Part shown: positions 1,264 through 40,644 of the stretch, piece by piece
Layout: the number at the start of each line of letters is the position of its first letter
Numbering within the stretch: position 1 is the first letter of the stretch
Sequence record: NC_027993.1
DNA length: 43,587 nt
Source: Escherichia phage K1G
Reading direction: 5' to 3' (one strand)
Notes under the pieces: generated by a model
What the model was told of the DNA's origin: nothing
Database searches by the model: none
The model's input: the letters and a program-made list of their open reading frames with translations, nothing else
Program-made: the position numbers and the translations under genes

Positions 1264-2745
1264 ATGTTAACTATGAACGGTCAGAATCAGGGTGTTAAGA
1301 CAAAACACCGGGAATGGCTGCATCACTTCGATAAATGGCAGAAGGTGCGCCACGCACTGGAGGGTGACCTTATCCGCTATCTGCGAAACGTCGGGAAGAA
1401 CGAGCCGGACCCAACTTATGCAGCCCAGCGCCAGGAAGAATACGAGAACGGCGCTATCTGCTACAATTTCACCAAGCGTACCCTGTCGGGTATGGTTGGC
1501 TCGGTAATGCGAAAAGACCCGGAGCAGATTATTCCACGTGAACTGGAATACCTGTTACGCAATGCCGATGGCTCGGGTGTTGGCCTGTGGCAGCACGCGC
1601 AGGATACGCTGATGGAGATTGACTCGGTGGGTCGTGGCGGTTTACTGGTGGATGCGCCGGAGACAGCGGCAGCGACGGCAGCCGAACAGAACGCCGGATT
1701 ATTAAACCCGGTCATCGCATTCTATACCGCAGAGAACATCATCAACTGGCGACTCACTCGCGTAGGCTCTGTTAACCGCGTTACGATGGTAGTGCTGCGT
1801 GAGGTATGGGAATATTCAGAACCTAGAGCCGAGTTTGAAACCAAGTCTGGGGAACAATACCGCGTTCTCGACTTGATTGACGGGCGCTACCGTCAGCGCA
1901 TATACCGATTCGATGCGGAAGGCGGCGCGCAAGACGAAGTAATAGAAATCTTCCCGGAACTGGGCGAACAGTTGCGCGGTAAAATCCCGTTCACGTTCAT
2001 CGGGGCCAGCAACAACGACGCGACGGTTGATGACGCGCCTTTGCTGCCGTTAGCTGAGCTTAATATCGGGCATTTTCGCAACAGCGCAGACAATGAGGAG
2101 TCCAGCTTCGTTGTGGGCCAGCCAACCTTGTTCATTGCGCCAGGTGAGAACATGAGCATGGCTCAGTGGAAAGAAGCTAACCCTCACGGAGTGCGCATGG
2201 GGTCGCGTTCAGGCCATAACATCGGTTACGGCGGCAATGCGTTTCTGATTCAGGCGGGAGAGAACAACCTCGCCAAACAGAACATGTTGGATAAAGAGAA
2301 TCAGGCAATCCAGATTGGTGCACAGCTTATCACGCCTACGCAGCAAATCACCGCCGAATCCGCTCGCCTGCAACGTGCTGCCGATACGTCCGTAATGGCA
2401 ACCATTGCGCGTAACGTAAGCATGGCGTACACCGAAGCGTTGCGTTGGGTGGCTGCGATGCTGGGTCTACGCGAAGGAACAGAAATTGAGTTCAAGCTGA
2501 ATATGGAATTCTTCCTGCAACCAATGACCGCTCAGGACCGTGCGCAGTGGATGACAGACATTAATGCCGGTTTACTACCGGCAACTGCTTACTACGCCGC
2601 GTTGCGTAAGGCTGGGGTAACTGACTGGACTGACGAGGAGATTACAACGGCTATTGAGGATGCACCTGTGCCGTTAGGCGATGTTACTCAGGTAACTGGC
2701 GAGATTCCGCAGTCGGCGCAACAGCAGGATGCCACCCAGCAATAA
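1264..2745 (+). CDS. portal protein
   Basis: 493-aa ORF directly after terL; RBS AAGAGGA 8 nt upstream; size and position typical of portal. Confidence 0.75.
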   Translation: MLTMNGQNQGVKTKHREWLHHFDKWQKVRHALEGDLIRYLRNVGKNEPDPTYAAQRQEEYENGAICYNFTKRTLSGMVGSVMRKDPEQIIPRELEYLLRNADGSGVGLWQHAQDTLMEIDSVGRGGLLVDAPETAAATAAEQNAGLLNPVIAFYTAENIINWRLTRVGSVNRVTMVVLREVWEYSEPRAEFETKSGEQYRVLDLIDGRYRQRIYRFDAEGGAQDEVIEIFPELGEQLRGKIPFTFIGASNNDATVDDAPLLPLAELNIGHFRNSADNEESSFVVGQPTLFIAPGENMSMAQWKEANPHGVRMGSRSGHNIGYGGNAFLIQAGENNLAKQNMLDKENQAIQIGAQLITPTQQITAESARLQRAADTSVMATIARNVSMAYTEALRWVAAMLGLREGTEIEFKLNMEFFLQPMTAQDRAQWMTDINAGLLPATAYYAALRKAGVTDWTDEEITTAIEDAPVPLGDVTQVTGEIPQSAQQQDATQQ

Positions 2746-2755
2746 GTTCACCTGT

Positions 2756-2776
2756 AGCCCCGAAAGGGGCTTTCTT
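2756..2776 (+). terminator. hairpin AGCCCC-GAAA-GGGGCT followed by T-rich run
   Basis: perfect 6-bp GC stem with GAAA loop then TTCTTATAAT; identical hairpin recurs at 4325. Confidence 0.45.
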
Positions 2777-2781
2777 ATAAT

Positions 2782-3858
2782 ATGCTATTAACTTTAGCGC
2801 CACAGGGTTTATTTATGAGCTTACTGACATCATTAATCAGTCACCAGATTTGGCTGCAACGCACCGCATCTGGTGAGGTGAAAGACCTAGCACCATTCAT
2901 TCAGGAGATGCGCGATGAAATCAAACGGCAGGTGTTGTTGTTCGGCGACGACGGGCGAAGCACAGCACGTCTGAATAAATTGTTACGCGACCTAGAAGAA
3001 GCACTGACCGGGTTAACCGGTGACTGGCAAACGAAGCTGACAGAAGACCTTAAGGAACTGGCGGCGTACGAGGCCGAGTGGAATGTGAAGACACTCGCGG
3101 CTAACGTTAACACGGAATTTGTTACCCCTACCGCTGAGCAGGTGTGGTCCGCCGCTGTGTTCCAACCGCTGGCTTTAAGCGACAAGCCAGCAGATTTCAC
3201 GAAACTTATGGAAGGCTGGGGTGAAACAGAAGTGTCGCGCCTAGTAACTGGCGTTAAGATGGGGTTTGTACAGGGCCAGACAACACGGCAGATTATCAAG
3301 AGCGTTGTTGGCTCCGGCGGGCTGGCGGACATCTCAGAGCGCAATGCCGCTACCGTAATCCGCACCGCACTTTCACACGTATCTAACGAAGCCCGCAACG
3401 AGACTTATCGGCAGAACAGCGACATCATCGAGAAATACGAATGGGTGTCAACACTGGACAGCCGTACCAGCACGATATGCAAGGCCAGAGATGGCATGAC
3501 ATGGGAAATCGGTAAAGGCCCTACGCCGCCAGCCCATCCGAATTGTCGAAGTACCACAGCACCTGTAATTAGCTCAGAGTTCGACTTCCTTGATGCAGGC
3601 GCAAAACGTGCTGCCAAAGGTGCTGATGGCGGAACGCAAGTAAGCGCGGATACCACTTACTACGAGTTCCTTAAACAACAACCGGCGTGGTTTCAGGACC
3701 AGGCGCTCGGCCCGGTGCGAGGTAAGATTTTCCGTAACAGCGGTATATCGCCGGAAGAGTTTCGCGTAATATCTGTAGATGGTTTCGGGAATCCGCTCAC
3801 GCTTAAGCAGATGGCGGAACTCGATAAACGTGTTGCTGATTATCTGAAAGGGGAATAA
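2782..3858 (+). CDS. head morphogenesis / minor capsid protein (start uncertain, alt ATG 2815)
   Basis: 358-aa ORF following portal, the usual position of the head-morphogenesis gene in siphovirus late operons; no strong RBS. Confidence 0.55.
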   Translation: MLLTLAPQGLFMSLLTSLISHQIWLQRTASGEVKDLAPFIQEMRDEIKRQVLLFGDDGRSTARLNKLLRDLEEALTGLTGDWQTKLTEDLKELAAYEAEWNVKTLAANVNTEFVTPTAEQVWSAAVFQPLALSDKPADFTKLMEGWGETEVSRLVTGVKMGFVQGQTTRQIIKSVVGSGGLADISERNAATVIRTALSHVSNEARNETYRQNSDIIEKYEWVSTLDSRTSTICKARDGMTWEIGKGPTPPAHPNCRSTTAPVISSEFDFLDAGAKRAAKGADGGTQVSADTTYYEFLKQQPAWFQDQALGPVRGKIFRNSGISPEEFRVISVDGFGNPLTLKQMAELDKRVADYLKGE

Positions 3859-4319
3859 TGATGGGCTTTTTCAAAGTAACTGACGTACCGTCACGCCGCG
3901 TAGTCCAGTACGCCCGCGTGTCTGGCTCTGGTGAGAACGTGGTGTTTATTGATGATGAAAGTGTACTCGGTACACCCGAAGACGATATGCCGTTTGCAGA
4001 TAAAACCGGTATTGCGTTACCCGCGGCGGGCATGCTTTATGAAATTCCGTATCTGGCGGATGCTGGCGACGTGTATTTCTCAGTGCAACCCGCCGATACA
4101 GAACTGGTAGACGGCCGCGCAACTATCACTGTCGAAGTTAAGGCGGGCAAAGCGCCATATGCGTTGACCTGGTACAAAGACGGGAAGGAAGTGGTCAACG
4201 CCCCGGAAGAGGCTTTGTCTCTGAAGGTTAATGCAGTCGGTGAATACTTCGTTAAAGTCACCGATGCCGATGGGGTAGAGGCCGTCAGTAAAGCGGCGAA
4301 GGTTACTAAGCCAGAATAA
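3858..4319 (+). CDS. Ig-like domain structural protein
   Basis: RBS AAGGGGA; C-terminal segment APYALTWYKDGKEV...GEYFVKV resembles Ig-like fold motif shared with ORF 7366..7716. Confidence 0.5.
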   Translation: MMGFFKVTDVPSRRVVQYARVSGSGENVVFIDDESVLGTPEDDMPFADKTGIALPAAGMLYEIPYLADAGDVYFSVQPADTELVDGRATITVEVKAGKAPYALTWYKDGKEVVNAPEEALSLKVNAVGEYFVKVTDADGVEAVSKAAKVTKPE

Positions 4320-4324
4320 ACTGA

Positions 4325-4344
4325 AGCCCCGAAAGGGGCTTTTT
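4325..4344 (+). terminator. rho-independent terminator
   Basis: AGCCCC-GAAA-GGGGCT hairpin followed by TTTTT. Confidence 0.7.
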
Positions 4345-4408
4345 AGTGCCTGTGATTATTCCAGTTATTCCACTCAATTGTAAATGTTGGAATAAACTAT
4401 TCGAATAG

Positions 4409-4437
4409 TTGACTTTTCACCAAAAATGTGCTAAGCT
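4409..4437 (+). promoter_or_regulatory. sigma70-like promoter TTGACT-N17-TAAGCT with TGn extension; -35 overlaps 16-bp perfect palindrome AACTATTCGAATAGTT (4395-4410)
   Basis: hexamers and spacing read directly; -10 is weak (3/6) but preceded by TG. Confidence 0.45.
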
Positions 4438-4617
4438 CCACCTGAGCTTGTGAAGTATGAACAAGCGACCGCGGCGCGGGCAGGTAACGGAGCGGGACGT
4501 AAGTCCTGAGTGTAGTTACGCTGACGCGTTCGGAAGGGCCATAGTCTATCGCTTGTGTAAAAAAGTAACTGGTTTACTGAGATTACGCCGTTTCTATGTT
4601 TAAATGATAAGGACTAG

Positions 4618-4640
4618 CGCCCCGCTTTATGGCGGGGCTT
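4618..4640 (+). promoter_or_regulatory. leader hairpin GCCCCGC-TTTATG-GCGGGGC (possible attenuator or processing site) just upstream of spanin RBS
   Basis: 7-bp GC stem followed by short TTTA; same hairpin in reverse orientation at 36779-36798. Confidence 0.4.
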
Positions 4641-4662
4641 TACTTATCGAGAAAGGAGAAAC

Positions 4663-5049
4663 ATGAATCTTAACGCAACTGTCGTAGCAGGAGCATGTTT
4701 CATCCTCCTGACATACGGCTACGGAATCTACCAGTATCGCAGCGGCTGGAACGAAGGCCGGGCGAATCTCGTTTCGCAGCAACAGCAGAAAGCACAGGCT
4801 GAGTTAGCGAAGAAAACACAACGGCAGCAGCAGGATGAATCAAAGGCCGCAGCCGCTGACAACGAAGGCAAGACGAAATCAGAGGTGATCACACGTGAAG
4901 TCGTTAAGTACATTAAAACGCCTGGTCGCAGCGTGTGCGCTTTTGACCCTGAGCGCGTGCAGCTCAAGTCCCGCGCCGTCGCAAACGCCAATTCCATCCC
5001 CGGATACGACGATGATGCAGCCGCCGTGCAAACTGGCGCCGCCAAGTAG
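4663..5049 (+). CDS. i-spanin (Rz-like)
   Basis: 128 aa; N-terminal TM segment VVAGACFILLTYGYGIY, Gln/Ala-rich coiled-coil periplasmic region; RBS AAGGAG; embedded out-of-frame lipoprotein ORF. Confidence 0.65.
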   Translation: MNLNATVVAGACFILLTYGYGIYQYRSGWNEGRANLVSQQQQKAQAELAKKTQRQQQDESKAAAADNEGKTKSEVITREVVKYIKTPGRSVCAFDPERVQLKSRAVANANSIPGYDDDAAAVQTGAAK

Positions 5050-5158
5050 CGACGCTGACGAGGATTTAGCTGCCGACGTCCGGAACGCCGAATGCGCACG
5101 GCAACTGCGCCTGAAAGTATTCCAGTTGCAGGATTATGTGAGGAATATTCTGGAATAG
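4895..5158 (+). CDS. o-spanin (Rz1-like lipoprotein), GTG start, +1 frame embedded in and extending past i-spanin
   Basis: signal peptide with lipobox LTLSAC, proline-rich mature region; RBS AGAGGTG upstream of GTG. Confidence 0.65.
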   Translation: MKSLSTLKRLVAACALLTLSACSSSPAPSQTPIPSPDTTMMQPPCKLAPPSSDADEDLAADVRNAECARQLRLKVFQLQDYVRNILE

Positions 5159-5240
5159 TTGCCTTGCATGTTGGAATAATTTATTCTTGACATGTAAATC
5201 CGGGTGGCCCGGGTTCCAACGTCCAGGGGACATACTGACT

Positions 5241-5942
5241 ATGAATCGTTTTTTACGTTATCCGTTCCAGGAAGAAGCTGGAGCAGAAGATAAATCAGGC
5301 GGCGGTGACGCACCTAAAATGTACACAGCCGAAGAAGTGCAGGCGCTGATTGAGAAAGAAGTCGCCGGGCTTAAGGCTAACCAGGAAGCATTGCTGAACG
5401 AGAAGAAAGAAGCCGCTCGTAAAGCAAAAGAGGCCGAAGAAGAGCGGCAGCGTGCACACCAGGAGGCCCTGAAAGCCGCCGGTAAGATGGACGAGTTCGA
5501 AAAGACGATTCGTAGCCAGTATGACCCGGTGTTAGCCGAGAAAGATGGTCGCATCTCCAGAATGGCAGAGCGCATCCTCGGCAGCGAACGCAAAGCGGTG
5601 TTAGGTTCTTTCGCGGGTGACTTCATTACCCCGGAAGCAGTAGACATTCTCGCGCCGTTCGTTAAGACTGAGTTTGAAGGTGATGATGTGGTTACTAAGT
5701 TTGTCGGCGCGGATGGCAACGTAGTCACAACTGACCCGGAACAGTTCCGCAAATACCTGCGCGAACATAAAGCGTTTTCGCATTTGATTAAAGCAAATGC
5801 AGCTTCCGGCGGCGGGGCTTCCGGTAGCAAAGGCGGCGGGGCCGCACCAGCGTTTAAAGACATGAGTGAAGCAGAGCGTTTAGCCCTGTATAAATCGAAC
5901 CCTGCCGAATTTGAACGGCAACTTAAAGCCCTGAGGAAATAA
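5241..5942 (+). CDS. scaffolding protein
   Basis: Ala/Glu/Lys-rich coiled-coil protein immediately upstream of major capsid gene; RBS AGGGGA before ATG at 5241 (track ORF begins further upstream at 5187). Confidence 0.55.
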   Translation: MNRFLRYPFQEEAGAEDKSGGGDAPKMYTAEEVQALIEKEVAGLKANQEALLNEKKEAARKAKEAEEERQRAHQEALKAAGKMDEFEKTIRSQYDPVLAEKDGRISRMAERILGSERKAVLGSFAGDFITPEAVDILAPFVKTEFEGDDVVTKFVGADGNVVTTDPEQFRKYLREHKAFSHLIKANAASGGGASGSKGGGAAPAFKDMSEAERLALYKSNPAEFERQLKALRK

Positions 5943-6994: not shown

Positions 6995-7010
6995 GGTTAA
7001 GATATAATCG

Positions 7011-27628: not shown

Positions 27629-27913
27629 CTAACTATAATAGCTAGCTATTAGGTCGTCAACCTGTTTAAACGAACCAACGACAAAAACATTCGCACCACG
27701 TTTACGCATCCGCTCATGTTCCCGTAGCTGGTGCGGGTCTGGCTTCGTGTTCTCGTCTTTCTTAACCTCGACGAACCAGACTATGCCGCCGGGGAGAATT
27801 ACCAGCAGGTCTGGGGCGCCGGAACGCCCCTCGTAGGAGAGTTTGCGAACGAGGCCGCCAAGGGCCTCGAATCGGTCTTTTGCGTATTTCTGTACGCGGC
27901 CCTCTTTAGTCAT
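27629..27913 (-). CDS. VRR-NUC domain nuclease
   Basis: PD-(D/E)xK signature GAPDLLV...VEVKK; ATG at 27913 overlaps upstream stop. Confidence 0.6.
   Translation of the reverse strand: MTKEGRVQKYAKDRFEALGGLVRKLSYEGRSGAPDLLVILPGGIVWFVEVKKDENTKPDPHQLREHERMRKRGANVFVVGSFKQVDDLIASYYS
27632..27660 (-). promoter_or_regulatory. early promoter TTGACG-N17-TATAGT (family 1) with 16-bp perfect palindrome TAATAGCTAGCTATTA in spacer
   Basis: read on minus strand: TTGACGacctAATAGCTAGCTATTATAGTT. Confidence 0.6.
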
Positions 27914-31185: not shown

Positions 31186-31214
31186 ACTATAATAGCTAAC
31201 TATTCGGGTGTCAA
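31186..31214 (-). promoter_or_regulatory. early promoter TTGACA-N17-TATAGT (family 1)
   Basis: minus strand TTGACAcccgAATAGTTAGCTATTATAGTT; near-palindromic AATAG-N4-CTATT. Confidence 0.6.
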
Positions 31215-33334: not shown

Positions 33335-33363
33335 ACTATAATAGCGAACTATTCACTTGTCAA
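33335..33363 (-). promoter_or_regulatory. early promoter TTGACA-N17-TATAGT (family 1)
   Basis: minus strand TTGACAagtgAATAGTTCGCTATTATAGTT. Confidence 0.6.
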
Positions 33364-36621: not shown

Positions 36622-36778
36622 TTTACGCGCCCTCTCTATCAAGTGAAACAACTATAACACCTACAATAGACAAACACAACCTATTGACAAAATAAAATGT
36701 AGCTGTAAAATCAACGTATCGAATGGCTTTAGTTAAGAATTACTTAGAAACAATATTCTTAAGTCTCGGGTACTTAAA

Positions 36779-36798
36779 GCCCCGCCATAAAGCGGGGC
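36779..36798 (-). promoter_or_regulatory. leader hairpin, reverse-orientation copy of the 4618-4637 hairpin
   Basis: GCCCCGC-CATAAA-GCGGGGC on + strand equals reverse complement of the spanin leader hairpin. Confidence 0.35.
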
Positions 36799-37042
36799 GC
36801 TAAATAGTACTCTTGGTAACGTTAGTATCTAAGTTTCCTCAAAGTAACAGCAAGTGGCAAGAAAGCCCCCGTCTATTTAAATTTTACCCTCCTTCATAAG
36901 CCACTGATAATTAAAAGTTTCTATAGTTGCCGTAAACGTGGAAGAGAGTACTTCACTTCGCTGGGGTGGGCTAACGCCCACCCACTGCGTTGCGTACTCT
37001 TTTAAGAAACGAAAGAATCACAACGGCAACGTAACTATTCTC

Positions 37043-37301: not shown

Positions 37302-37502
37302 ATGGAAGAATTATTTGAAGAACTGAAACATCATGATTTCGAGGAAATATATTTCGTAGCTGAACGCTACGAGGTGCATCTGGCGGACGGTATAACGGTT
37401 ATTACATCTACCAGCGAGCGAATGTTAAATAGCTTACGAGCAATACGAACGGCATCGAATCATGATGCTTGTGCCGACGACGCTGAGGGAGGTTGCCGTT
37501 AA
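37302..37502 (+). CDS. hypothetical early protein
   Basis: 66 aa from ATG 37302, RBS GGGGGAGGG. Confidence 0.5.
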   Translation: MEELFEELKHHDFEEIYFVAERYEVHLADGITVITSTSERMLNSLRAIRTASNHDACADDAEGGCR

Positions 37503-37705
37503 TGCGAATCCGTATAACTGACCGCAGGCTTATCCGTATAACTGACCGCAGGCTTATCCGTATAACTGACCGCAGGCTTATAGATTTCGGTATCTCGGTA
37601 GGTGATGTTTTTCCGGCGTTCAGCATCAACCATTATGGTTTTATGATTGAGTACAAAGGGTCGTTATTGTTCGTGTATCGGGATGAATGTGAGGTTCTGG
37701 TATGA
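37502..37705 (+). CDS. small protein containing three RITDRRLI repeats
   Basis: ATG overlaps upstream stop (TAATG), RBS GAGGGAGG; 3 x 24 bp tandem repeat is in frame. Confidence 0.4.
   Translation: MRIRITDRRLIRITDRRLIRITDRRLIDFGISVGDVFPAFSINHYGFMIEYKGSLLFVYRDECEVLV
37510..37581 (+). repeat. perfect tandem direct repeat, 3 x 24 bp (CCGTATAACTGACCGCAGGCTTAT)
   Basis: three identical consecutive 24-mers read directly. Confidence 0.9.
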
Positions 37706-39607: not shown

Positions 39608-39916
39608 TTGGATAAATTTACTGAAACAGTGACGGGGTGGCTTCTCGCCGCCGCACTGGTCGGTGGATTGGTCGGGCTAAGACAACATAAAAAGTCTATA
39701 TCCGGGCCGATTGACGGACTGGTATTTCTTCTCACCGGCTTCGCGTGTGCTATTTTCGGTGCACCTCTTGCCGCTCAATGGTTCGGTATTACCGGTGAGC
39801 GTGAGATAGCTGGCCTCGGATTCATCATTGCCATTCTCTGGATGCCTATCTATTCCCGCCTTTCTGGCATCGTATCGGGTGGCGATATTGCCCGCCCAGG
39901 AGGACCGCATGACTGA
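39608..39916 (+). CDS. holin candidate (TTG start)
   Basis: 102 aa with 2-3 hydrophobic helices; RBS GGAGGA 6 nt upstream of TTG; immediately upstream of endolysin cassette. Confidence 0.5.
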   Translation: MDKFTETVTGWLLAAALVGGLVGLRQHKKSISGPIDGLVFLLTGFACAIFGAPLAAQWFGITGEREIAGLGFIIAILWMPIYSRLSGIVSGGDIARPGGPHD

Positions 39917-40181
39917 GCTATTCTGGTTTGTCACAATGCTTTCAATGGGCGCTTCGTCCCTGTTCAACGTGTATAATGAACGCGTGGACGACGGGCTGTT
40001 CGGGCGTGTTCTCTATATCCTGACTGCTATCGTCTGTGCCGCCGGATGTGTTCACCTGTTACAGGGCAGCATGTCGCCTACGCTGCCTGAGACATTAATC
40101 ACATTAGTCGCGCTGCGCCAGATTCGCCAGGCGTGGCTGTCATACGGAGGACATAAGCGTGTCTCGAAATATTTCAGATAA
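39909..40181 (+). CDS. second holin-like membrane protein (holin/antiholin)
   Basis: ATG 39909 with RBS AGGAGG; two hydrophobic segments; overlaps neighbours. Confidence 0.5.
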   Translation: MTELFWFVTMLSMGASSLFNVYNERVDDGLFGRVLYILTAIVCAAGCVHLLQGSMSPTLPETLITLVALRQIRQAWLSYGGHKRVSKYFR

Positions 40182-40644
40182 TGGATTGCATTTCTGTGCC
40201 GCGTTCGAGGGATTCCGCGGAACTGCGTATCGCGCTACGCCGAATGAGAAGTATCTTACTATTGGCTACGGTCACTACGGGCCAGACGTAACACCAGGTA
40301 AGACCATCACACCAGGACAGGGCTTGCTGTTACTGAATCGCGATATGGCTAAGGCTGTAGCTGCTGTTGACGCAGCAGCACACCATTCGCTTACACAGGC
40401 ACAGTTCGATGCGGTGTGTGACCTGGTCTATAACGTGGGGGCTGGCGTGATTTCGGCTACTACCGGTACAGGTAAGGCACTGCGCTCCGGTGATATCGCG
40501 ACGTTACGGGCTAAGCTGGCGCTGTTCATCAACCAGAACGGCAAACCACTACTTGGCCTGCGTCGCCGTACAGCCGGGCGTCTGGCGCTGTTCGACGGTA
40601 AACCGTGGCAAGAGGCTGAGGCTATCGGTAGGGCGGTTAAATGA
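40159..40644 (+). CDS. endolysin, T4-lysozyme-like (GH24), GTG start
   Basis: AAFEGFRGTAY...TIGYGHYG catalytic-region motif; RBS ACGGAGGA. Confidence 0.8.
   Translation: MSRNISDNGLHFCAAFEGFRGTAYRATPNEKYLTIGYGHYGPDVTPGKTITPGQGLLLLNRDMAKAVAAVDAAAHHSLTQAQFDAVCDLVYNVGAGVISATTGTGKALRSGDIATLRAKLALFINQNGKPLLGLRRRTAGRLALFDGKPWQEAEAIGRAVK

What the first reader, a model, noticed from the sequence alone, without database searches (positions are those of the whole stretch)
4344..5215. Spanin pair set apart from the holin/endolysin cassette in its own promoter-flanked module
The embedded i-spanin/o-spanin genes (4663-5158) sit between head genes, about 7.6 kb (around the circle) from the holin and endolysin at 39.6-40.6 kb. 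They are preceded by a terminator, a promoter whose -35 overlaps the 16-bp palindrome AACTATTCGAATAGTT, and a ~200-nt structured leader. The 12-mer ATGTTGGAATAA occurs both upstream (4384-4395) and downstream (5168-5179) of the module, each time 7-13 bp before a TTGAC(A/T) hexamer, with GGAATAGTTG also repeated (4403-4412, 5152-5161).
Basis: seen in the sequence. Interest (0 to 1): 0.45.

Follow-up and report, generated by a model that had tools for sequence, protein, structure and literature searches.

The report
Spanin cassette with structured leader RNA
The two spanin (outer-membrane lysis) genes of this Kagunavirus phage form their own small transcription unit, which is already known, but in front of them lies a conserved ~200-base folded non-coding RNA that matches no described RNA family.

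Summary
The window is a Kagunavirus (Guernseyvirinae) genome. Three corrections apply. The spanin genes overlap rather than being embedded. The downstream TTGACA is not conserved. The separation itself is present in about 480 relatives and is already published. The new part is the "leader". An extended -10 sigma-70 promoter (4409-4437) starts a non-coding RNA. Its 5' domain (4444-4549) is a short hairpin plus a 22-bp irregular hairpin, with strong covariation support (97.7% of cells paired; 17 of 28 pairs compensatory). The RNA ends in a terminator-like hairpin (4606-4648) 15 nt before the i-spanin start codon. It has no Rfam match, no E. coli homologue and no significant similarity to HK022 put. 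In some Kagunaviruses the promoter plus 5' domain also heads the early-right operon. GGAATAA/TTATTCC motifs cluster at the promoters on both sides of the spanins. Most likely this is a cis-acting leader/attenuator that gates transcription into the spanins. The mechanism is inferred, not shown.

The parts
4324..4341 (.). T1: bidirectional terminator hairpin AAGCCCC-GAAA-GGGGCTT (followed by TTT) after the Hoc-like gene
   Evidence: and direct reading. The same 18-mer hairpin recurs at 2756-2773 after the portal gene.
4356..4371 (+). Two direct TTATTCC repeats (4356-4362 and 4365-4371; period 9 bp)
   Evidence: ATTATTCCAGTTATTCC is invariant between Kagunavirus and Jerseyvirus (A1) and present in Cornellvirus-type phages (A4).
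4384..4395 (+). 12-mer ATGTTGGAATAA. Its TGGAATAA forms an inverted repeat with TTATTCCA (4365-4372) across 15 bp.
   Evidence: exact match. The GGAATA core is conserved in Jersey and Cornell types.
4395..4410 (.). 16-bp perfect palindrome AACTATTCGAATAGTT, abutting and overlapping the -35
   Evidence: TATTC.AA.AGT is conserved in A1.
4409..4437 (+). P_up: -35 TTGACT (4409-4414), 17-bp spacer, extended -10 TGc-TAAGCT (4429-4437)
   Evidence: Direct reading. TGnTAnnCT is kept in Kagunavirus late and early copies and in Jersey and Cornell types, while the -35 varies (TCGACT, TAGACT, GTGGAT, TTTACT). No transcript mapping.
4444..4549 (+). Leader RNA 5' domain. P1 4446-4451/4461-4466. P2 4469-4471 + 4473-4478 / 4525-4533. 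P3 4481-4488/4515-4523. Asymmetric internal loop GGAGC / GAGUGUA. P4 4494-4498/4503-4507. Then the conserved AAGGGCC (4534-4540).
   Evidence: The MFE fold gives the same architecture in 10 divergent Kagunavirus copies (one variant, L056, folds differently). Covariance model R1. Pair counts: 97.7% paired, 17 of 28 pairs compensatory, slid controls 30-39%. Plus strand -40.3 kcal/mol against -28.6 for the minus strand.
4550..4605 (+). Leader 3' half. A second copy of the P1 5' strand GCTTGTG (4551-4557); small hairpin AGTAA/TTACT (4564-4578); conserved AGATTACGCCGT.
   Evidence: Direct reading; A1 and A11. Jerseyviruses likewise repeat their own P1 strand (GCTTTCAG). Structure here is not supported by covariation.
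4606..4648 (+). T2: long terminator-like hairpin. Outer stem GATAAG/CTTATC (4606-4611/4643-4648); inner stem 4619-4625/4632-4638; tail TTTACTTATC.
   Evidence: One inner pair takes four Watson-Crick forms (C:G 5, G:C 4, A:U 1, U:A 1). The outer stem covaries between Kagunavirus and Jerseyvirus (GAUAAG/CUUAUC against UAUACG/CGUAUA, read from A11). An identical 28-mer lies at 36775-36802 on the minus strand.
4653..4658 (+). Shine-Dalgarno AAGGAG of the i-spanin gene
   Evidence: Direct reading; 4 nt before the ATG at 4663.
4663..5049 (+). i-spanin (128 aa; hydrophobic N-terminal segment VVAGACFILLTYGYGIY)
   Evidence: phrog_2536 Rz-like spanin, E 1e-56; annotated as spanin in relatives.
4895..5158 (+). 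o-spanin (87 aa; lipobox LSAC), in another frame, overlapping the i-spanin 3' end
   Evidence: phrog_5672 and phrog_1267 Rz-like spanin, E 2e-28 and 6e-20. Weak Pfam LysC/Rz1-like match, E 0.054.
5117..5161 (+). GGAATA motif cluster inside the o-spanin 3' end: GTATTCCAGTT (5117-5127), AGGAATATTCTGGAATAGTTG (5141-5161)
   Evidence: conserved in A5.
5159..5187 (+). P_down for the scaffold/head genes. Candidate -35 TTGCCT (5159-5164) and -10 TATTCT (5182-5187). The second 12-mer copy (5168-5179) and the extended -10-like TGGAATAAT (5172-5180) lie in the spacer.
   Evidence: Conserved in Kagunavirus, Jerseyvirus, Cornellvirus SP-031 and (TTGCCC-17-TATATT) Serratia phage Smarc3. In SP-031 it stays with the scaffold gene although a reverse gene separates it from the o-spanin.
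5194..5240 (+). Scaffold gene 5' UTR with two small hairpins, CCGGG-TGG-CCCGG (5200-5212) and GTCC-AGG-GGAC (5221-5231)
   Evidence: Invariant from Kagunavirus to the Serratia phage in A5.

Best explanation
This is the self-contained spanin expression cassette of a Guernseyvirinae phage. Its control region is a promoter-coupled, cis-acting structured leader RNA.

Proposed sequence of events:
1. T1 stops transcription coming from the terminase/portal/decoration genes.
2. P_up, an extended -10 sigma-70 promoter preceded by an array of GGAATAA/TTATTCC sites (probably bound by an unidentified regulator), starts a non-coding RNA at about 4444.
3. The RNA folds at once into a 5' hairpin (P1) and a 22-bp irregular hairpin (P2-P4) carrying a conserved purine-rich internal loop and a conserved 3' AAGGGCC tail.
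4. About 170 nt after the start, the polymerase meets a strong GC hairpin (T2) 15 nt before the i-spanin start codon.
5. Only transcripts that pass T2 encode the spanins. They then run on into the head genes, which get a second promoter (P_down).

I therefore read the leader plus T2 as an attenuator that sets how much, and possibly when, spanin mRNA is made. I read the 5' domain as the part that makes the transcript or elongation complex competent to continue, by antitermination, by binding a factor, or by protecting the 5' end.

Shown: the anatomy, conservation, covariation, strand specificity, absence of coding, and the second genomic placement. Inferred: promoter activity, the start site, termination at T2, and any effect of the 5' domain on read-through.
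For: - Anatomy: terminator, promoter, leader, hairpin, Shine-Dalgarno sequence, spanin genes.
- No promoter-like site lies between T2 and the spanin start, and T1 lies upstream. Spanin expression therefore has to pass T2.
- The intergenic region is 95-99% identical in 177 phages, while flanking genes are 74-97%.
- 177 of 179 records carry 4357-4665 as one uninterrupted block, whereas insertions are common just upstream at 4317-4357.
- RNA structure: 97.7% of cells paired against 30-39% in slid controls, 17 of 28 pairs with compensatory changes, invariant G:U pairs. The plus strand folds 12 kcal/mol better than the minus strand.
- The T2 hairpin covaries.
- Diverged but homologous or analogous structured leaders precede the spanins in Jerseyvirus and Cornellvirus-type phages.
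- The promoter plus 5' domain also forms the 5' end of the early-right operon leader in Ec1-ASingh, phiEc3/4, 22664BS2, G AB-2017, RP180 and Schulenburg, and in metagenomic Kagunavirus contigs. There it has a different 3' continuation. This argues for a 5'-leader (cis) role rather than a defined trans RNA.
- Phages whose spanin promoter is consensus TTGACA/TATAAT (Shemara, Pantoea AH01) lack the GGAATAA array. This fits the array being an activator site for weak -35 promoters.
Against: - There is no transcript data. The one Kagunavirus RNA-seq paper does not analyse non-coding regions.
- T2 has a weak U tract in the window (TTTACTTAT) and a poorer one in Jersey and Cornell types, so it may not terminate much.
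- I found no alternative (antiterminator) pairing that competes with T2.
- The early-right copies are not followed by an obvious intrinsic terminator inside the leader.
- Very high sequence conservation extends to unpaired stretches, which a purely structural leader would not need.
- The alignment used for pair counts was fitted to the model. That inflates the percentage paired, although independent MFE folds reproduce the architecture in the Kagunavirus copies (except variant L056); the Jerseyvirus copies do not fold this way on their own.
Confidence: 0.5

Rival explanations
1. Factor-independent processive antiterminator RNA, working like HK022 put. The nascent 5' domain binds RNA polymerase and lets it read through T2 and the later terminators of the head-tail operon. 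In phages with the early copy, it does the same for the early-right operon. This is a specific sub-case of the cis-leader reading.
For: - Two adjacent stem-loops start within about 3 nt of the predicted start site. They are separated by 1-2 nt, and the second is long and irregular, the same gross layout as putL.
- The element occurs in two copies, one at the head of each of two long operons, like putL and putR.
- A terminator-like hairpin follows immediately and must be passed.
- Further plus-strand terminators lie downstream, for example at 7010 after the capsid gene.
- No Q- or N-like protein was found among about 30 small ORFs scanned.
Against: - Model R1 finds nothing in the HK022 immunity region.
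- The best local alignment to putL is matched by 69 of 1000 shuffles.
- Head genes also have P_down, whose transcripts lack the element.
- The window and the K1ind phages do without the early copy.
- T2-type hairpins have weak U tracts, so no antitermination may be needed.
Confidence: 0.2
2. RNA processing or stability element. The 5'-terminal hairpin and the 22-bp irregular hairpin protect the long untranslated leader from 5'-end-dependent decay or Rho, or serve as an RNase III site as in T7 and lambda N leaders. They have no effect on termination.
For: - P1 starts about 2 nt from the predicted 5' end.
- P2+P3+P4 add up to about 22 bp with an asymmetric internal loop, the size and shape of phage RNase III sites (comparison from established knowledge, not tested).
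- The same module heads two unrelated operons.
- The early and late leaders also share the pre-SD sequence ACTTATCGA.
Against: - A simple stabiliser would not need conserved loop and tail sequences such as GGAAGGGCC and the GAGUGUA loop.
- Nothing here tests cleavage.
Confidence: 0.2
3. A trans-acting small RNA gene (about 195 nt, from P_up to T2) that acts on host or phage targets or titrates a factor. Spanin expression would be incidental read-through.
For: - A strong promoter and a hairpin terminator bracket a non-coding RNA.
- 95-99% identity extends to unpaired AU-rich stretches, higher than in the neighbouring genes.
Against: - The early-right copies share only the 5' domain and continue into mRNA.
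- Jerseyvirus and Kagunavirus differ in most unpaired sequence.
- Complementarity to the rest of the phage does not exceed chance (11-12-mers).
- There is no E. coli homologue.
- The U tail is short for an Hfq-type sRNA.
- The unit is never separated from the spanins.
Confidence: 0.12
4. The conservation reflects a DNA-level feature (recombination junction, homing-endonuclease target, small protein gene) rather than an RNA.
For: - Relatives carry HNH endonuclease and other insertions right next to it, at 4317-4357.
- Some annotators call a small CDS here, for example Sciku gene 007.
- A 48-codon ORF exists at 4457-4603.
Against: - Compensatory changes, invariant G:U pairs and strand asymmetry point to a sense-strand RNA.
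- The ORF is truncated to 9-19 codons in K1ind1 and the early copies, its ATG is absent in Jerseyviruses, and it matches no protein family.
Confidence: 0.03

Closest known systems
Lambda late leader: pR' promoter, 194-nt 6S RNA, tR' terminator (Q-dependent antitermination unit)
   Same: A sigma-70 promoter is followed by a ~200-nt non-coding transcript that ends at a hairpin terminator immediately upstream of lysis/late genes. Read-through is required for downstream expression. A DNA element adjoins the promoter.
   Different: No Q-like protein was found. In lambda the whole lysis cassette and the structural genes follow; here only the spanins sit between the leader and a second promoter. The lambda 6S leader is not known for a conserved covarying structure like P1-P4 (my knowledge).
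HK022 putL/putR cis-acting antiterminator RNAs
   Same: A promoter-proximal pair of stem-loops, the second long and irregular. Two paralogous copies head two operons. They sit upstream of terminators.
   Different: No sequence or covariance-model similarity. The present element is longer (~90-106 nt against ~72 nt). The host is a virulent siphovirus rather than a lambdoid phage. Activity is untested.
Two-component spanins (lambda Rz/Rz1 type) encoded away from holin and endolysin, as in T4 and as reported for Guernseyvirinae phage Schulenberg
   Same: An overlapping i-spanin/o-spanin pair, genetically separate from the holin/antiholin and endolysin genes (PMC6763661). The same layout occurs in about 480 relatives.
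   Different: Nothing differs for the genes themselves. The upstream leader RNA and the promoter motifs have not been described in the papers I could search.
Phage RNase III processing hairpins (T7 R sites, lambda N leader) and 5'-terminal stabiliser hairpins (ompA type)
   Same: An irregular hairpin of about 22 bp with an asymmetric internal loop in an untranslated leader, and a hairpin at the very 5' end.
   Different: Resemblance only, recalled from established knowledge. No cleavage or stability data and no family model to test against.

Membership tests
Two-component spanin (Rz/Rz1-like) | i-spanin homologous to known Rz-like proteins, with an N-terminal membrane anchor | tested here: met
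   phrog_2536, E 1e-56 over the full length. The hydrophobic segment VVAGACFILLTYGYGIY was read. No TM-prediction tool was run.
Two-component spanin (Rz/Rz1-like) | o-spanin: a small lipoprotein (lipobox + Cys) encoded in another frame, embedded in or overlapping the i-spanin gene | tested here: met
   phrog_5672 and phrog_1267, E 2e-28 and 6e-20. The LSAC lipobox was read. The architecture is overlapped (4895-5158 against 4663-5049), not embedded.
Intrinsic (Rho-independent) terminator, for T2 | GC-rich hairpin followed directly by a U tract | tested here: inconclusive
   The scan calls it (8 pairs, 7 GC, tail TTTACTTATC) and the stem covaries. The U tract is interrupted and is paired with upstream GAUAAG in the MFE fold. 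It is poorer still in Jersey and Cornell types.
HK022 put antiterminator RNA | Sequence/structure homology to putL or putR | tested here: not met
   R1 gives no match in the HK022 PL/PR region at E up to 1. The local alignment score is reached by 69 of 1000 shuffles.
HK022 put antiterminator RNA | Acts in cis on RNA polymerase (beta' zinc-binding domain) to suppress pausing and termination without protein factors | not testable with these tools
   Needs in vitro transcription and rpoC mutants.
Lambda-type Q-dependent late unit | A Q-family antiterminator gene in the genome | tested here: not met
   No Q, N or other antiterminator family among about 30 early/right-arm ORFs scanned with Pfam and PHROGs. 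Not every ORF of the genome was scanned.
Lambda-type Q-dependent late unit | Promoter, ~200-nt leader and terminator directly upstream of late/lysis genes | tested here: met
   Anatomy.
Any described RNA family (Rfam 15) | Covariance-model match at or near the gathering score | tested here: not met
   No match in the whole window at gathering thresholds. Only chance-level matches (E above 1) in 4300-5300. No tRNA or tmRNA.
Trans-acting base-pairing sRNA | Own promoter and terminator, plus a conserved seed complementary to targets | tested here: inconclusive
   A promoter and terminator are present. No complementarity beyond chance within the phage. Host targets were not searched.

The most novel reading that the evidence does not exclude
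The 5' domain (P1 plus the P2-P4 hairpin with its conserved internal loop and GGAAGGGCC tail) is a new family of promoter-coupled, cis-acting antitermination/processivity RNAs in virulent siphophages. It is unrelated in sequence to HK022 put. It is placed at the head of the late (spanin-head-tail) operon and, in some phages, of the early-right operon that carries the holin and endolysin. In this way it would co-ordinate the physically split lysis genes.
Probability: 0.15. Interest if true: 0.8.

Novelty: new variant of a known kind. Interest (0 to 1): 0.5.

Why it matters
The spanin placement itself is ordinary for this phage subfamily.

The leader is worth recording for four reasons:
- It is a covariation-supported RNA motif absent from Rfam.
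- It is confined, as far as pattern scans can see, to Guernseyvirinae phages. These are common E. coli and Salmonella phages used in therapy and biocontrol work.
- It is more conserved than the genes around it.
- It is re-used, together with its promoter, at a second operon.

If it controls read-through, it would be only the second kind of cis-acting RNA-based antitermination known in phages. If it is a stability or processing module, it is a compact, portable expression part. Either way, annotators currently mislabel it as a hypothetical protein.

Tried and rejected
- Rfam at gathering and at E up to 10: nothing. ARAGORN: nothing. The tRNA-Ser annotated nearby in phage templet lies on the other strand over the T1 equivalent and is not this element.
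- The 48-aa ORF 4457-4603 is not conserved and has no family match.
- A MAFFT alignment plus RNAalifold recovered only the outer helix, because the inner helices were misaligned. I replaced it with a covariance model built from five near-collinear copies with a hand-written structure, followed by model-guided alignment.
- Pairing between the pre-RNA CCACCT and the AAGGGCC tail: not maintained in Jerseyviruses, and probably upstream of the start site.
- A riboswitch-style antiterminator competing with T2: no convincing alternative pairing found by inspection.
- Similarity to putL: not significant.
- Host origin: no match in 5,426 complete E. coli genomes.
- Wider distribution: the genome-contig scan gave 5 pattern hits. 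Two are true, both short contigs that look like mis-binned or contaminating phage DNA. The metagenome scan gave 38 true hits of 42, the larger ones on ~44-kb Kagunavirus-like contigs, with no sign of a position other than the late and early-right ones; the flanks of individual hits were not inspected.
- Candidate regulators for the GGAATAA array: only an HTH_17 (Xis/MerR-like) protein, a weak NinH-like match and a DUF3850/ASCH protein were recognisable. None could be linked to the motif.
- Comparison of the motif with E. coli regulator consensus sites from memory gave no convincing match.
Full report
IDENTITY AND CONTEXT. The window is a Kagunavirus (Guernseyvirinae) genome. Positions 3800-5900 are 92-96% identical to many Escherichia phages and collinear with K1ind1. 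Genes from about 37 kb, through the ends, to about 24 kb are almost all on the plus strand. The order is early-right small genes, holins (39608-39916, about 39903-40181), endolysin (40159-40644), more small genes, terminase, portal, head morphogenesis, Hoc-like decoration (3858-4319), the spanins, scaffold (5241-5942), major capsid, and tail genes. Family scans confirm these assignments.

CHECK OF THE OBSERVATION. The coordinates of the spanins, the upstream terminator (4324-4341), the palindrome (4395-4410) and both copies of ATGTTGGAATAA (4384-4395, 5168-5179) are right. The 7.6-kb distance to the endolysin holds around the circle.

Corrections:
- The o-spanin overlaps the i-spanin and extends beyond it. 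It is not embedded.
- The second repeat is the 9-mer GAATAGTTG.
- The downstream TTGACA (5187-5192) has no -10 partner and is TTGTTA in Jerseyviruses.

A 12-mer repeat is by itself at chance level genome-wide. Its core is not: GGAATAA and TGGAATA each occur 13 times against about 4.5 expected (0 of 100 shuffles reach 13). More than half of the occurrences lie in 4356-4395 and 5118-5179.

THE ARRANGEMENT IS THE RULE IN THIS SUBFAMILY. About 480-496 phage records share this region with spanins between the decoration and scaffold genes. [quoted passage not shown] The headline of the finding is therefore already known.

THE TWO PROMOTER REGIONS. Upstream, TTGACT (4409-4414), a 17-bp spacer and TGc-TAAGCT (4429-4437) form an extended -10 promoter. 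The pattern TGnTAnnCT is kept in every Kagunavirus, Jerseyvirus and Cornellvirus-type copy, while the -35 drifts (TCGACT, TAGACT, GTGGAT, TTTACT).

Before it lie two direct TTATTCC repeats (4356-4371), an inverted TGGAATAA (4388-4395) and the palindrome. ATTATTCCAGTTATTCC and GGAATA are invariant between genera. Two phages whose spanin promoter is consensus TTGACA/TATAAT (Shemara, Pantoea AH01) lack the array. This suggests an activator site, but no binding protein could be assigned.

Downstream of the spanins, the block GGAATAGTTGCCTT...TGGAATAATTTATTCTTG is conserved in three genera. In Cornellvirus SP-031 it stays with the scaffold gene even though a reverse gene separates it from the o-spanin. 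The Serratia phage Smarc3 has TTGCCC-17-TATATT at the same place. I therefore place the scaffold promoter at TTGCCT (5159-5164) / TATTCT (5182-5187), with TGGAATAAT (5172-5180) as an alternative extended -10. The two -35 regions are paralogous (GAATAG-TTGACT-T and GAATAG-TTGCCT-T).

THE LEADER IS A REAL, NON-CODING, SENSE-STRAND RNA STRUCTURE.
- Conservation. The 4357-4665 block is 95-99% identical in 177 phages and is never interrupted. It is more conserved than the flanking genes.
- Non-coding. The 48-codon ORF inside it is truncated or lacks its ATG in relatives and matches no family.
- Structure. Independent MFE folds of ten divergent Kagunavirus copies (one variant, L056, folds differently) give one architecture. 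It consists of P1 (6 bp, starting about 2 nt after the predicted start), a 1-2 nt linker, and a long hairpin: P2 (9 bp with a bulged C), P3 (8 bp with a bulge), an asymmetric purine-rich internal loop (GGAGC / GAGUGUA), and P4 (5 bp plus a tetraloop). The conserved AAGGGCC follows.
- Model search. A covariance model built from five copies finds every Kagunavirus and Jerseyvirus copy. It finds nothing else in the window, and nothing in Cornellvirus-type leaders, the Serratia phage or HK022.
- Covariation. On the model-guided alignment of 21 distinct sequences, 97.7% of cells pair against 30-39% when partners are slid. Seventeen of 28 pairs show changes on both sides, and the covariation score is 0.424 against 0.127 for shuffles. 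The caveat is that this alignment is fitted to the model. However, RNAalifold on plain MAFFT alignments already shows C:G/U:A/A:U exchange in P2 and U:A/G:C/A:U exchange in P3.
- Strand. Invariant G:U pairs and a 12 kcal/mol advantage of the plus strand fix the strand.

3' HALF AND T2. After the 5' domain come a second copy of the P1 5' strand (GCTTGTG, 4551-4557; Jerseyviruses likewise repeat their own GCTTTCAG) and a small hairpin. Then comes a long hairpin whose inner stem (4619-4638) is called a terminator by the scan. One inner pair takes four Watson-Crick forms across phages. The outer stem covaries between genera (GAUAAG/CUUAUC against UAUACG/CGUAUA). The U tract is interrupted, and it is worse in Jersey and Cornell types, so termination efficiency is uncertain. 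No promoter-like site lies between T2 and the spanin start.

A SECOND PLACEMENT. In Ec1-ASingh, phiEc3/4, 22664BS2, G AB-2017, RP180, Schulenburg and several metagenomic contigs, the same promoter (from the -35) plus 5' domain forms the start of the early-right operon leader. This lies between the divergent HTH gene and the first rightward gene. These copies are 76-88% identical to the late copies and carry most of the compensatory changes. Their 3' continuation differs, but it rejoins the late leader at ACTTATCGA just before the Shine-Dalgarno sequence. The window itself, like K1ind1, has a different segment there.

DISTRIBUTION. Pattern scans of 100,044 species genomes and of JGI/ENA metagenomes found the element only on phage-like contigs; the hits score as late-type or early-right-type copies, though I did not inspect their flanks. 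No E. coli genome has a homologue.

WHAT IT MOST LIKELY DOES. Because the 5' domain always sits at the 5' end of an mRNA leader, travels with its promoter and has no common 3' end, I favour a cis role. In the window, the spanins can only be reached through T2. The unit therefore looks like an attenuator, and the 5' domain is the obvious candidate for deciding whether transcripts continue.

I cannot decide how it does this. It resembles HK022 put in layout and in its two-copy placement, but shows no detectable homology. It resembles the lambda pR'-6S-tR' unit in anatomy, but no Q-like gene was found. Its size and internal loop also fit an RNase III or stability element. The conserved loop and tail would suit a protein partner. 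A trans-acting sRNA remains possible but fits the early copies poorly. All activity statements are inferences.

COMPARISON AND NOVELTY. The genes and their separation are known. The leader RNA, its covariation-supported structure, its duplication at the early-right operon and the shared GGAATAA promoter motifs were not found in Rfam or in the literature I could search. I rate it a new variant of a known kind: a promoter-proximal structured leader with an attenuator hairpin. Interest is moderate.

Noticed in passing
window 36770-36910, minus strand: An identical 28-nt copy of the T2 hairpin (36775-36802) lies inverted in the early regulatory region, about 80 nt downstream of a minus-strand promoter-like site (TTATCA-18-TAAAAT, 36910-36881). 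Together they would give a ~100-nt RNA antisense to the early-right leader. It folds with z = -4.43.
   Followed up: partly
window 2756-2773 and 4324-4341: The same terminator hairpin AGCCCCGAAAGGGGCTTT is used twice, after the portal gene and after the Hoc-like gene.
   Followed up: no
window 37508-37581: A perfect 24-bp x 3.1 tandem repeat lies inside ORF 37493-37705 and encodes LIRITDRR three times.
   Followed up: no
window 4317-4357 (relatives: Golestan, XY2, fEg-Eco19, SZH-1 and others): This is an insertion hot spot between T1 and the TTATTCC array. Relatives carry 0.3-1.2 kb inserts here, including genes annotated as HNH homing endonuclease and DNA polymerase III beta clamp.
   Followed up: partly
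window 5194-5240: The scaffold gene 5' UTR has two small hairpins (CCGGGTGGCCCGG and GTCCAGGGGAC). It is invariant from Kagunavirus to the Serratia phage Smarc3, a likely translational or stability element of its own.
   Followed up: no
L003 690-767 (Salmonella phage templet), minus strand: A tRNA-Ser is annotated over the end of the decoration gene and its terminator in phages templet and celemicas. ARAGORN finds no tRNA in the window, so this is probably an annotation artefact.
   Followed up: partly
L005 1230-1330; L006 1190-1270; L137: The spanin leaders of Serratia phage Smarc3 and of Cornellvirus-type phages are differently arranged. They still contain a long irregular hairpin with a UAGCG(U/A)/GAAGCG loop motif and a CGGAAGG sequence. 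This hints at a wider, permuted family that model R1 does not detect.
   Followed up: partly
window 1530-1550 and 5141-5151: An inverted TATTCCA-N7-TGGAATA lies inside the portal gene. AGGAATATTCT at the o-spanin 3' end resembles, from memory, the RcsAB box. Neither was tested.
   Followed up: no
window 27632-27660, 31186-31214, 33335-33363, minus strand: Three near-consensus TTGAC(A/G)-17-TATAGT promoters are spaced along the leftward replication genes.
   Followed up: no
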